DNA from: a virus
Length of the DNA: 10,664 nucleotides
Virus genome (UHGV): UHGV-1833545
Direction: 5' to 3' (one strand)
Shown here: piece by piece, positions 1-3,000 of the stretch
Position numbering within the stretch: position 1 is the stretch's first letter
Layout: every line of letters begins with the position of its first letter
Position numbers: made by a program

Positions 1-3000
1 TCTCATATTCCTATCGCCATGCCGTGGGGCATGGATGGGGCAAAGTCCGATAATTTCTGGTTCAACATAGCAATCTGATCGCTGCTGCTGTCGGCCATCC
101 AGGCGCCGTAAACATTGAAAACCATCTGGGCGCTGGAGTGCCCCATTTGGCTGGCAATGAAACTCGGATTGGCCCCGGCAGACAGCGACCAGCAGGCGTA
201 AGTGTGTCTCGACTGATACGCCTTGCGGTGCCTTAAACCTGACCGTTTAAGCGCCGCATCCCATGAGTCACCAACTGAATCGGCTTTGTACAGGTAACCC
301 ACGCTGCCACTTTTTTTAACCAACTGAGGATTGAACACAAATGTACAGTCGTGAATGACCGTTCGGCCATACTCCCGCAGTTGTACCTCAACCTGATACT
401 GCCTGCCTAACCTGGTCATTTCCGCCTGGTTCCTCAAAGCGTCAATGGCTGGCTTGATCAGGTGAACGACCCTGTCGGTACCGGCTTCGGTTTTTGGTAG
501 AGTGAAATCACCGAGTTTCGTATAATTCCGGCGTATGGTCATCGTTCCAGTTTTCAGATCTATGTCTTCCCATGCGAGGGATACCAGCTCACCGTAGACG
601 TAATCCTGTGTATACCGCAATTGACCACAGGTTTTTCGTTTGCTGATGCTTGCAGGCATCTATGAAGCGAACGAATTCATCACGTGTGAGCGGATCTGGT
701 TCTATCCTGGCCCTCTTTAGCGGCTTGATGCCGTTAAACGGGTTTTCACTCACATAGCCATTATCAACAGCAAACTGAAACATACCCGCGATCGTGGTCA
801 TGTAGTAGTTTACCGTCACCACACTCAACCCTTTATCCCCCGCCAGCATATCCTTCCTGATATAGAGAAGCTCTTCTCTTGTCACAGACGAAACCAGCTT
901 ATTCGCGCCAACCCTCGGCAGCATGCTTCTAACCACCGATTCGTACCTGTTTATGGCATTAGCGCAGATCTCCATCCGTTTAAGCTCAAGCCATTTTTCA
1001 GACAGATCTTTTACGGTGATATCTTTCTTCCCGATGCCGAAAGTTTTCAGATTTGGCGAGTTGGGGAATTGGGCCGCATAGTCAAAGGTCCCCATGCGGA
1101 TAGCGAAACAAACTGACGTTCTCAGCTCCCCGGCCACCTTCCTGTTTTTAGCGGTGTCAGGGACACCGAGGTTTTCCCTGACACGCTTACCTTTAAAAAT
1201 GAACCATATGCGGAGTGACTTTCCGTGGTTCTCAACGCCCGTTGGGTATGATTCTTTACTCATTTATCCCTCCCGACGTCCAGGAGCGTTGCAAGTTTAC
1301 CTGTTTCATACCGCCCGATCACCCAATGGTTGCTTTTGCGCCTGAATCCATGCGTCTACCGCTTTGCGGTTGTACATGCATTCGCTGGTTGGCTTTGGCT
1401 CTCCTTCAGGGGAAACGTGCTTATACTCCCGGCCAAGCAGCCAAGATGATTTACGGGCCCGTGTAATGGTGCCGCGCTTCATCCCAGTGACCGCCATCAG
1501 CAAGTCCTCTGAAACCCATTCGTTTGGCTCGATCTGGATAATTGTCTGCATTTATCACCTCCGATGCTTACCGCGTAATTCCTCTTCTTCCTGACAGTCA
1601 GCACAGCGCTGGCATCCCGCCACCAGTTCCCTGCGCCGCTCGGGTATCTCTTCCCCGCAGTCGCGGCAGTGAGTAGCCGAAACTGCATGATGGTTGATGC
1701 GCATGTTCTGGATGGTCATTTCAAGCCGGCGTTCTGCCAGCTCGTTGGCCTAATCGATGAGTTCTGCGCTCATGCTGAAACTCCCTTAACTGCCAGAAAC
1801 GTAGCCATCGCTTTATCAACAATCTTCGAATTGTGGTATTTGCTGATTGCCCAGGTGATAGCGAATAGAATCCAACGGAAGTGACTGGTATACGTTTTAA
1901 ACGTCAGGCCTTCGCAGACATCCCAGGCGCTCCAACCAGCTGGCCAATCAGCGTCATAAACAGCCTGATAAGCCTCCCATTCGTTATTGAAGTCAGCTCG
2001 GCATAAGTCGCGGACGATTTCGCGTAACACTGCTTTGTCGCTATCCGGTGTATCGTCATCGTCGTCCCAGTCTTCATCCTCTTCTGTTTCAGCATCTTCA
2101 TCGTCCTTCAGGTAATCACTCAGAGACTCTTTCAGACTTTTGCAGAACGCGTCGTGGTCATACTCTTTCGCCAGCATTTCTCGTGCCGAACATCCCGCGC
2201 CAGCCTCCAGCTTTTCAGCCCAGTAATGGGTATTGATTCCACCCTCCCAGGCGCCAAAAAAGTCGAACATGTCCACGATGCGACTGAATGTCCAGGTTCC
2301 CATGTCGCCGGTTACGGTCAAGTAACCAGGCCATGTGATAACGTCGTAGTAGTAGCAAGATGTTCCCGGCTGCTGCATGCGCAGGTGGCGATACAGCCCA
2401 TCGTCACGGATGATTTCCAGACGGTGAAATGCGGTATCAATCAAAAATCGTGAGTCAATTTCGAAGAAGCTCATAACTCGACTGCCTTACTCAGCTTCTC
2501 GCCGAGCGCAAAGATGTAGTCGCGTAACTCTTCCAGTGACTGCGCTTCTGATTGCAGAATTTCACGATGGCAAAGTTCTTTCACCAGGTGCTCAAACTTG
2601 CTGTAATAACCGATACGGCTTAGTGTTTCTTTCCCTGCATTCTCACCTTCTTTGATAATTCCTCTTTCATTAAGAATCAGGTCGTGTTTGGTTCCGGTAA
2701 TAACGTATTTGCCGAGGTCGATGTTTAGCTTCATTGTTTTCATTGTTAATTCCTCAGTCATTACTGATAGCGCCATAGCGTGAGCGGTAATTACGCAGGC
2801 GCGGGTCAATTTCAGGGAAGTGGGTATATGTGGCTTTGCGGAATGGTCGGATTGATGTCTGGTAAATTCGCTCTCGTTCTTCTTTCTCTGCAAGCCATAT
2901 ACAGTGGCGAAATTCCTTTTCCTCTTTCGTTTCCTGCGGTAGAGACATTATTCGATCGTAGTTTTTTCTGAATTTATCCAGCACCTCCGATACGGAATTG

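What the first reader, a model, noticed from the sequence alone, without database searches (positions are those of the whole stretch)
1555..1773. TraR/DksA-like zinc-finger gene carries an in-frame amber codon at codon 8
Translation gives MSAELID-TAG-ANELAERRLEM...HCRDCGEEIPERRRELVAGCQRCADCQ.... Either the gene is inactivated, or it is made as a 54-aa protein from the internal ATG at 1719, or it needs an amber-suppressor host. TraR-like phage proteins bind RNA polymerase, so its status affects host-takeover predictions.
Basis: seen in the sequence. Interest (0 to 1): 0.45.

Follow-up and report, generated by a model that had tools for sequence, protein, structure and literature searches.

The report
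Nonsense-mutated phage TraR/Orf73-like gene
A small prophage gene whose product normally reprograms the host's RNA polymerase has been switched off by a single C-to-T stop-codon mutation, an ordinary loss-of-function allele that nevertheless circulates among E. coli strains and is one of many independent knock-outs of this gene.

Summary
On the minus strand, 1773..1555 encodes a 72-codon TraR/DksA zinc-finger gene with TAG at codon 8 (1752..1750). The nearest intact alleles (E. coli BY63 and W444) have CAG (Gln) there, so this is a one-step C>T nonsense change.

The intact protein is 51% identical to phage lambda Orf73 and sits in the same place, just upstream of xis in the pL operon. The stop falls inside the N-terminal ExxDxA tip motif (DxxDxA in TraR). 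That motif is required for function in TraR and Orf73.

The internal ATG at 1719 has no Shine-Dalgarno sequence and would give a tip-less 54-aa protein. All 191 undisrupted homologues collected start 17-18 codons upstream of it. The window contains no tRNA gene.

Best reading: a null or strongly reduced allele of a non-essential accessory gene.

It is not a sequencing error or a private mutation. The same TAG occurs in nine E. coli assemblies read here (the exact 54-aa product is on record on 29 contigs), on a near-identical int-xis module in hosts whose flanks differ by up to 3%.

Relatives carry other independent disruptions: E11, E14, E18, E41, E42, C57 and Q61 stops, plus frameshifts.

The window also has frameshifted integrase and ATPase genes.

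The parts
1555..1773 (-). TraR / lambda-Orf73-like gene (72 codons when intact), here interrupted at codon 8
   Evidence: Translation. Pfam PF01258. TraR structures 5W1S/6N57 at E 4e-8. 51% identity to lambda Orf73. Intact 72-aa orthologues are annotated in BY63, W444 and DY612.
1750..1752 (-). Amber codon TAG (codon 8). It arose by C>T at 1752 (G>A on the + strand) from CAG Gln. It lies at the x position of the E4-x-x-D7-x-A9 tip motif, and the change also destroys a GATC site.
   Evidence: Alignment, difference list, nearest-intact-allele comparison, motif mapping.
1781..1787 (-). Shine-Dalgarno sequence AAGGGAG of the native start (ATG 1773-1771). The ATG overlaps the stop of the upstream 234-aa gene as ATGA.
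   Evidence: Sequence. Anti-SD duplex energy is -7.9 kcal/mol.
1555..1719 (-). Residual 54-aa ORF from the internal ATG (M19). It keeps the zinc-finger globular domain and the C-terminal helix but has no tip motif and no Shine-Dalgarno sequence.
   Evidence: ORF list. Anti-SD duplex energy is -2.6 kcal/mol. PF01258 still matches. NCBI pipelines annotate this ORF as a 54-aa 'TraR/DksA C4-type zinc finger protein' on 29 contigs.
1306..1551 (-). Excisionase (DUF1233), next gene downstream. Its own strong Shine-Dalgarno sequence GGAGG (1558-1562) lies inside the 3' end of the TraR-like gene.
   Evidence: Pfam PF06806 at E 1.5e-34. Anti-SD duplex energy is -10.8 kcal/mol.
1770..2474 (-). Upstream 234-aa hypothetical gene of the same operon
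   Evidence: ORF list. Annotated as a hypothetical protein in BY63. No Pfam family.
3..1263 (-). Tyrosine integrase, split by a 1-bp insertion (A at 596/597) after residue 222
   Evidence: tblastn gives two pieces in frames -3 and -1. The insertion is absent from every relative compared.
3655..4331 (-). AAA-type ATPase gene (226 aa when intact), frameshifted by a 4-bp deletion near 4198-4203
   Evidence: It is intact at 226 aa in L011, L016 and BY63.

Best explanation
This is a loss-of-function (null or strongly reduced) allele of a lambda-Orf73/TraR-type gene in the exo-xis part of the pL early-left operon of a lambdoid E. coli prophage.

The intact 72-aa protein would insert its N-terminal helix into the RNA polymerase secondary channel, with the acidic ExxDxA tip near the active site. 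It would then shut down rRNA and ribosomal-protein promoters during lytic growth. This function is inferred from homology.

A single C>T change turned Gln-8 (CAG) into TAG, so ribosomes starting at the native ATG release a 7-residue peptide. At most, a little tip-less 54-aa protein could arise by re-initiation 30 nt downstream. A trace of full-length protein could arise by near-cognate read-through.

The gene is dispensable, so the phage module carrying the allele stayed transmissible and spread among E. coli lineages. The same gene has been knocked out independently many times in Klebsiella and E. coli prophages. That fits weak purifying selection on an accessory gene. Selection in lysogens against a growth-inhibiting protein may add to it.
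For: Shown here:
- Codon 8 is CAG in the nearest intact alleles. The window's gene differs from them only by the nonsense change and one synonymous change.
- In 85 intact IMG/VR alleles of the MSAE... class (80 distinct sequences), codons 2-18 show 11 synonymous and 9 mostly singleton non-synonymous variant codons. The upstream segment is therefore coding and constrained.
- Family assignment rests on PF01258, TraR structures and 51% gap-free identity to lambda Orf73. In that alignment E4, D7 and A9 match Orf73 D3, D6 and A8.
- The native start has a Shine-Dalgarno sequence and the internal ATG has none. The internal Met is absent from lambda Orf73 and from the ELQREAAIAKC variant group.
- The same TAG is present in 9 of the 10 E. 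coli loci fetched with the 54-aa ORF. The exact 54-aa product is on 29 contigs, against 47 for the exact intact 72-aa protein.
- Carrier modules differ by 0-8 substitutions per 3 kb in most pairs (15-19 against L016; L011 is more divergent), while host flanks differ by up to 241 per 8.2 kb. This indicates horizontal spread.
- Independent disruptions in relatives:
  - Q8 TAG on a haplotype 11 nt away from the window's allele.
  - E11 TAG on at least two haplotypes.
  - E14 TAG, E18 TAA and a 1-bp deletion.
  - E41, E42, Q61 and E63 stops, a mid-gene frameshift and an ATG>ATT start change.
  - C57 TGA in the isolated Klebsiella phage Mulock.
- In a pattern-based IMG/VR sample there were 6 independent nonsense or frameshift events in 117 genes. 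The adjacent xis had 0 in 97 and int had 1 in 95 (rate ratio about 32, Fisher p 9e-5).
- The nonsense target size of the gene is not elevated.
- The window has two further frameshifted genes.

From the literature:
- D3/D6 tip substitutions in lambda Orf73 behave like a deletion.
- orf73 is non-essential: its loss lowers phage yield 3-4 fold.
- Its expression slows host growth and lowers plating efficiency about 10^4-fold (PMC9239242).
- The TraR N-helix, residues 2-27, reaches the active-site Mg (PMC6970531).
Against: - No expression data exist. Re-initiation at ATG 1719 or low-level UAG read-through cannot be excluded. Read-through by tRNA-Gln would restore the wild-type residue.
- The 54-aa ORF is undamaged in all carriers. 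The allele is too young for that to be informative.
- The excess of disruptions over other accessory genes of the same region is only about 3-fold (p 0.04-0.11). Positive selection for loss is therefore not demonstrated.
- The allele was not found in 5,426 complete E. coli genomes, IMG/VR, GTDB species representatives or JGI metagenomes, so it is rare overall.
- The host genome of the window is not available, so a chromosomal amber suppressor cannot be ruled out.
Confidence: 0.8

Rival explanations
1. A functional N-terminally truncated protein. After termination at the early stop, ribosomes re-initiate at ATG 1719 and make a 54-aa tip-less TraR-like protein. This protein still docks on the rim helices and beta-Si1 of RNA polymerase. 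It then acts as an attenuated regulator or as a competitor of DksA, Gre factors or intact TraR. Under this reading the recurrent N-terminal stops are selected, not neutral.
For: - The 54-aa ORF keeps the complete PF01258 domain, the R47/R48 pair and the C-terminal helix.
- N-terminal stops are numerous and reach appreciable frequency: the E. coli 54-aa product is listed in 30 index blocks and the Klebsiella P0003 product in 40.
- In the E18 allele the stop abuts the ATG (TAAATG), which is ideal for translational coupling.
- DksA tip mutants still bind RNA polymerase (PMC9239242).
Against: - The internal ATG has no Shine-Dalgarno sequence, and in this window the stop is 30 nt upstream of it.
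- The internal Met is not conserved in lambda Orf73 or in the variant group.
- In the unbiased sample, disruptions are not concentrated in the N-terminus. They also hit E41, E42, Q61, C57, zinc-ligand cysteines and the reading frame. That pattern points to plain loss of function.
- The abundance of 54-aa calls is partly an ascertainment effect of searching with that ORF.
- No truncated TraR has been shown to bind RNA polymerase.
Confidence: 0.08
2. Conditional expression by amber suppression or programmed read-through. The gene is full length only in hosts with a suppressor tRNA, or it is deliberately kept at about 0.1-1% output by natural UAG read-through to limit toxicity.
For: - CAG>TAG is the change that a glutamine-inserting amber suppressor such as supE, or near-cognate tRNA-Gln, would read back to the wild-type residue (established genetics; not tested here).
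- The intact protein is growth-inhibitory (PMC9239242), so down-tuning could be advantageous.
Against: - There is no tRNA gene in the window.
- The stop is not conserved: 191 of the 220 gene copies collected are undisrupted, and none of the 197 IMG/VR copies translated carries a stop at codon 8.
- Relatives are interrupted at other positions by TAA, TGA and frameshifts, which no single suppressor would rescue.
- From general knowledge, amber suppressors are rare in natural isolates.
Confidence: 0.04
3. A sequencing or assembly error in an otherwise intact gene.
For: The window also has two frameshifts (int, ATPase) that no relative shares. That could hint at a lower-quality assembly.
Against: - The identical TAG is present in nine independently assembled E. 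coli genomes read here. It is implied for most of the 29 contigs that carry the 54-aa product.
- It is a substitution, not a homopolymer indel.
Confidence: 0.02

Closest known systems
Bacteriophage lambda Orf73 (exo-xis region; Gopalkrishnan et al. 2022, PMC9239242)
   Same: - 51% identity over 69 residues without gaps.
- Same size.
- Same acidic tip motif: E4/D7/A9 here against D3/D6/A8 in Orf73.
- Same C4 zinc motif, and one of the same extra cysteines (C54 here, C53 in Orf73).
- Same position in the pL operon between the recombination genes and xis, in a lambdoid prophage with N, cIII and its thermoregulator, a cI-type repressor and the O and P replication genes.
   Different: - The gene here lies directly next to xis, with no ea22 or ea8.5 in between.
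- The first acidic residue of the tip is Glu, not Asp.
- In this window the gene is cut by an amber codon at the position equivalent to Orf73 S7, so the functional protein is not encoded.
F-plasmid TraR (PDB 5W1S, 6N57)
   Same: - Sequence match at E 4e-8 over residues 7-70 and 37% identity.
- CxxC-17-CxxC zinc motif.
- R47/R48 here align with TraR R48/R49.
- Three-part layout: N-helix, globular domain and C-helix.
   Different: - Encoded by a phage, not a plasmid.
- The ExxRK motif reads ExxRE here.
- Activity on RNA polymerase has not been tested.
- The window's allele lacks the N-helix tip.
Nonsense pseudogenes of accessory genes in decaying or domesticated prophages
   Same: - A single-step stop relative to intact orthologues.
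- Other lesions in the same element (int and ATPase frameshifts).
- Several independent knock-outs of the same gene in relatives.
   Different: The amber allele predates the other lesions. It is found in prophages with intact integrase and full early regions in divergent hosts, so it spread on a still-mobile phage and did not arise during terminal decay.

Membership tests
TraR / lambda Orf73 subfamily of the DksA/TraR family | DksA/TraR C4 zinc-finger domain (Pfam PF01258) with a CxxC-17-CxxC motif | tested here: met
   PF01258 scores 39.6 bits against a cut-off of 24.9. The ligands C36, C39, C57 and C60, with 17 residues between C39 and C57, align with TraR C37, C40, C58 and C61.
TraR / lambda Orf73 subfamily of the DksA/TraR family | Small size (about 73 aa) with an N-terminal helix, a globular domain and a C-terminal helix, alignable to TraR and Orf73 | tested here: met
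   The ancestral (repaired) 72-aa sequence aligns to TraR 5W1S/6N57 over residues 7-70 at E 4e-8. It aligns to lambda Orf73 over residues 3-71 at 51% identity with no gaps. No structure was predicted.
TraR / lambda Orf73 subfamily of the DksA/TraR family | N-terminal DxxDxA tip motif, required for activity | tested here: not met
   Intact relatives have ExxDxA (E4-L-I-D7-Q8-A9), a conservative variant. In this window the motif is cut by TAG at the Q8 position. Any product starting at M19 lacks the motif entirely. The locus is therefore a disrupted member: a family member by descent, not by encoded function.
TraR / lambda Orf73 subfamily of the DksA/TraR family | Arg pair equivalent to TraR R48/R49, which contacts the rim helices and beta'Si3 | tested here: met
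   R47 and R48 align with TraR R48 and R49. The following residue is E rather than K, so ExxRK becomes ExxRE.
TraR / lambda Orf73 subfamily of the DksA/TraR family | Binds RNA polymerase and inhibits rRNA and ribosomal-protein promoters without ppGpp | not testable with these tools
   This needs biochemistry or ΔdksA complementation. It is inferred only from homology to proteins tested in PMC9239242.
Lambdoid exo-xis region accessory gene | Located in the pL operon between the recombination/kil-cIII genes and xis-int | tested here: met
   The gene order is int, xis, TraR-like, 234-aa gene, DUF5405, anti-RecBCD and onward to cIII (Rfam Lambda_thermo at 4726-4784), N, and the repressor, all on the minus strand.
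Programmed stop-codon read-through / suppressor-dependent gene | The stop codon is conserved at the same position among homologues, or a cognate suppressor tRNA is encoded nearby | tested here: not met
   191 of 220 gene copies collected are undisrupted, and none of the 197 IMG/VR copies translated has a stop at codon 8. Stops in other copies are at different codons and of all three types. There is no tRNA gene in the window.
Pseudogene (nonsense allele) | A premature stop relative to intact near-identical orthologues, with no conserved alternative start | tested here: met
   The allele is one nonsense and one synonymous change away from the BY63 allele. All 191 undisrupted homologues start upstream of M19. 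The internal ATG lacks a Shine-Dalgarno sequence and is absent from lambda Orf73.

The most novel reading that the evidence does not exclude
The recurrent early stops (Q8, E11, E14, E18) are not neutral decay but a selected way of converting a growth-arresting TraR/Orf73-type factor into something else. A tip-less 54-aa protein would be made by termination-reinitiation. It would occupy the entrance of the RNA polymerase secondary channel without inhibiting transcription. It would thereby blunt DksA/ppGpp, Gre factors or superinfecting phages' TraR homologues in the lysogen.
Probability: 0.06. Interest if true: 0.6.

Novelty: already known. Interest (0 to 1): 0.27.

Why it matters
For annotation, this prophage should not be credited with a working TraR/Orf73-type host-takeover factor. 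Pipelines currently call the leftover 54-aa ORF a 'TraR/DksA C4-type zinc finger protein', which overstates its status. More broadly, the gene is knocked out repeatedly and independently in E. coli and Klebsiella prophages, and also in phage Mulock, which was deposited as an isolated phage. This is field evidence that the RNA-polymerase-reprogramming function is dispensable and possibly costly to lysogens. That fits the laboratory findings that lambda Orf73 gives only a 3-4 fold yield benefit but is strongly growth-inhibitory. This is a modest point about prophage domestication, not a new mechanism.

Tried and rejected
- **Exact-allele scans.** A 34-nt probe across the TAG found nothing in IMG/VR, the GTDB species representatives or JGI metagenomes. 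A 45-nt probe found nothing in 5,426 complete E. coli genomes. The allele was found only through the exact 54-aa product look-up.
- **Phage-borne suppressor.** There is no tRNA gene in the window.
- **Local promoter.** A promoter could have expressed the gene in the lysogen, but there is no sigma-70-like site in 1200-3200. This is weak evidence.
- **Codon composition.** The one-step nonsense target is 4.0% of possible substitutions, against 4.9% for xis and 4.1% for int. Composition therefore does not explain the excess of stops.
- **N-terminal concentration of disruptions.** The 54-aa look-ups are biased towards N-terminal events. The unbiased 20-mer sample shows 2-3 of 6-7 events in the first quarter of the gene, so there is no clear enrichment.
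- **Excess over other accessory genes.** The excess is only about 3-fold and of borderline significance. The claim of positive selection for loss was therefore dropped to a possibility.
- **PGAP product names.** The name 'C4-type zinc finger protein' in complete E. coli genomes looked like a marker of truncation. The one locus checked (H18) is an intact 72-aa variant.
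Full report
**1. What is in the sequence**

The feature lies on the minus strand. ATG 1773-1771 overlaps the TGA of the upstream 234-aa gene as ATGA and is preceded by AAGGGAG. Seven sense codons follow (MSAELID). TAG is at 1752-1750. The frame then runs on to TGA at 1557-1555.

The first in-frame start after the stop is ATG 1719, which gives the 54-aa ORF listed.

**2. Identity of the gene**

The read-through sequence matches Pfam PF01258 (zf-dskA_traR, 39.6 bits against a cut-off of 24.9). Its best solved relative is F-plasmid TraR (5W1S/6N57, E 4e-8).

I recovered lambda orf73 from J02459 as the unannotated 73-aa ORF between ea22 and orf61. It is 51% identical over 69 residues without a gap. 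In that alignment:
- E4, D7 and A9 of the window protein match Orf73 D3, D6 and A8, the DxxDxA tip motif.
- The amber codon sits at the x position between D7 and A9.
- C36, C39, C57 and C60 form the CxxC-17-CxxC zinc site.
- R47/R48 match TraR R48/R49.
- C54 matches one of the extra cysteines of Orf73.

The surrounding genes place the gene in the exo-xis part of a lambdoid pL operon, immediately upstream of xis. They are int, a DUF1233 excisionase, DUF5405, anti-RecBCD, cIII with its Rfam thermoregulator at 4726-4784, N, an S24 repressor, and O-like and DnaB-like replication genes.

**3. The stop is a one-step mutation of a sense codon**

E. coli BY63, BY68, W444 and PI12 carry 99.4-99.6% identical DNA with an annotated intact 72-aa gene. 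The alignment shows CAG at codon 8.

Over window 1-2584 the only differences from BY63 are:
- a 1-bp insertion in int;
- one substitution in int;
- a synonymous C>T in the TraR-like gene;
- the nonsense C>T.

The nearest intact allele is thus two substitutions away.

**4. The upstream 18 codons are coding, not a leader**

None of the 80 best IMG/VR relatives and none of the undisrupted copies in a sample of 117 drawn with a conserved 20-mer downstream of M19 begins at the internal ATG. All begin MSAE[I/L]IDQANELAERRLE or MPEIIDQANELAERRLE.

Among 80 distinct intact sequences, codons 2-18 show 11 synonymous and 9 mostly singleton non-synonymous variant codons. That indicates purifying selection.

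The native start has a Shine-Dalgarno duplex of -7.9 kcal/mol. The internal ATG has -2.6, which is effectively none. The internal Met is missing from lambda Orf73 and from the ELQREAAIAKC variant group.

**5. Consequence for the protein (inference from the literature)**

- The TraR N-helix (residues 2-27) runs through the secondary channel, and residue 2 lies 4.3 Å from the active-site Mg (PMC6970531).
- D3 and D6 are required for TraR function. Tip substitutions (D3N or D6N in vitro; D3A plus D6A in the lysogen) strongly reduce lambda Orf73 function, and the D3A/D6A lysogen yields as little phage as the deletion (PMC9239242).
- A product starting at M19, which aligns with TraR M17, would lack the tip and about two thirds of that helix.

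The allele is therefore best read as null or strongly reduced in function.

The downstream xis has its own strong Shine-Dalgarno sequence (-10.8 kcal/mol). The operon also encodes an N antiterminator. I infer little polarity on xis and int, but did not test this.

**6. The allele is real and shared**

A look-up of the exact 54-aa product found it in 30 index blocks, of which 24 contigs were read. It is on 29 NCBI E. coli contigs, against 47 for the exact intact 72-aa protein.

Nine of the ten loci shown carry the identical TAG at codon 8. All nine sit at the yecN/DUF72-cmoA attachment site with an intact 419-aa integrase. Their recombination and immunity modules differ.

The 3-kb int-xis-TraR module differs by 0-8 substitutions among most carriers (15-19 against L016, and more against L011). 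Their chromosomal flanks differ by up to 241 per 8.2 kb. The allele has therefore moved between E. coli lineages on a transmissible phage, and the gene is dispensable.

The allele is nonetheless rare. It is absent from 5,426 complete E. coli genomes, IMG/VR, the GTDB representatives and JGI metagenomes.

**7. It is one of many independent knock-outs**

| Source | Disruption |
|---|---|
| Tenth E. coli-type locus (L010), different integrase at the folD/cysS site | E14 GAG>TAG |
| Klebsiella loci found with a sister 54-aa product | Q8 TAG on a haplotype 11 nt from the window allele |
| Same Klebsiella set | E11 TAG on haplotypes 9-15 nt apart, one of them a single step from an intact allele |
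| Same Klebsiella set | E14 TAG, E18 TAA, and a 1-bp deletion |
| Unbiased IMG/VR sample | Six independent nonsense or frameshift events in 117 genes: E11+E63, E41, E42, Q61 and two frameshifts |
| Unbiased IMG/VR sample | An ATG>ATT start change and zinc-ligand missense changes (C36R, C39Y, C60R) |
| Klebsiella phage Mulock, isolated from wastewater | C57 TGA |

In the same IMG/VR loci, xis had 0 disruptions in 97 genes and int had 1 in 95. The per-codon rate ratio is about 32 (Fisher p 9e-5). Codon composition does not explain this.

Other accessory genes upstream are also hit, with about 7 events in 30,637 codons. The excess over them is only about 3-fold (p 0.04-0.11).

The safe conclusion is weak purifying selection on a non-essential accessory gene. 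Selection against a growth-inhibiting protein remains possible but unproven. Lambda Orf73 lowers plating efficiency about 10^4-fold when expressed (PMC9239242).

**8. Rivals**

- **A functional tip-less 54-aa protein.** The intact zinc-finger domain and the TAAATG stop-start junction of the E18 allele favour it. The missing Shine-Dalgarno sequence, the non-conserved Met, and the disruptions elsewhere in the gene argue against it.
- **Suppression or programmed read-through.** There is no tRNA gene in the window, the stop is not conserved, and relatives use TAA, TGA and frameshifts.
- **Sequencing error.** The independent assemblies carrying the same TAG exclude it.

**9. State of this particular prophage**

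The window is a mosaic:
- 1-3050 matches L014/L015/L017 at 99.9%.
- Positions from about 3071 to 4726 match L016.
- 4831-9980 matches L013.

It carries two private lesions. A 1-bp insertion splits the integrase after residue 222. A 4-bp deletion splits the 226-aa ATPase after residue 44. If these are real, the element can no longer integrate or excise by itself. The amber allele is older than these lesions.

**10. Verdict**

This is an ordinary nonsense allele of a known gene family, with a modestly interesting population pattern.

Noticed in passing
window 3-1263 (minus strand), insertion at 596/597: The tyrosine integrase is split by a 1-bp insertion (CCGT[A]GACG) after residue 222. tblastn gives two pieces in different frames. 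None of the ten related E. coli loci nor BY63 has the insertion, so it is private to this window. It is either real decay or an assembly error.
   Followed up: partly
window 3655-4331 (minus strand), about 4198-4203: The 226-aa AAA-type ATPase gene of the early-left operon is frameshifted after residue 44 by a 4-bp deletion (GCCAGCCA to GCCA). It is intact in L011, L016 and BY63.
   Followed up: partly
window 1-10664: The window is a recombinant mosaic. 1-3050 matches L014/L015/L017 at 99.9%. Positions from about 3071 to 4726 match L016 and BY63. 4831-9980 matches L013 at 99.2%. The anti-RecBCD gene region (about 2800-3020) is highly divergent from BY63.
   Followed up: partly
window 1750-1755 (minus strand GATTAG): The amber mutation changes GATCAG to GATTAG and so destroys a GATC (Dam) site. 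The mutated base is the C of GATC. The same C>T has arisen on a second, Klebsiella haplotype (L027). I did not examine whether a phage cytosine methylase makes this C a deamination hotspot.
   Followed up: no
L006 (Klebsiella phage Mulock, MN098327.1) 1656-1874: An isolated phage carries TGA at the zinc-ligand Cys57 codon of the same gene. Its record annotates a 56-aa 'TraR/DksA family transcriptional regulator'.
   Followed up: yes
IMG/VR loci L128, L147, L151, L152, L154, L194, L197, L202, L214, L225 (and probably L223), upstream of the TraR-like gene: A 73-aa accessory gene found in 60 of the loci switches reading frame at codon 38/39 in about 11 of them. tblastn gives two pieces in different frames at 89-100% identity. 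This could be a recurrent frameshift or a natural two-frame variant.
   Followed up: no
L227 (NZ_JAMBOM010000024.1, 481-bp contig of Sporosarcina aquimarina): A 481-bp contig in a Firmicute assembly contains the enterobacterial-phage TraR-like 20-mer. It is most likely contamination of that assembly.
   Followed up: no
window 4726-4784 (minus strand): Rfam Lambda_thermo (cIII thermoregulator) matches at 88.5 bits. This confirms that the left operon is lambda-like.
   Followed up: yes
window 10031-10642 (plus strand): A 203-aa ORF with HNH_3 and AP2 domains, a homing-endonuclease-like gene, follows the DnaB-like helicase gene. Similarity to BY63 and to most relatives ends at 9980.
   Followed up: no
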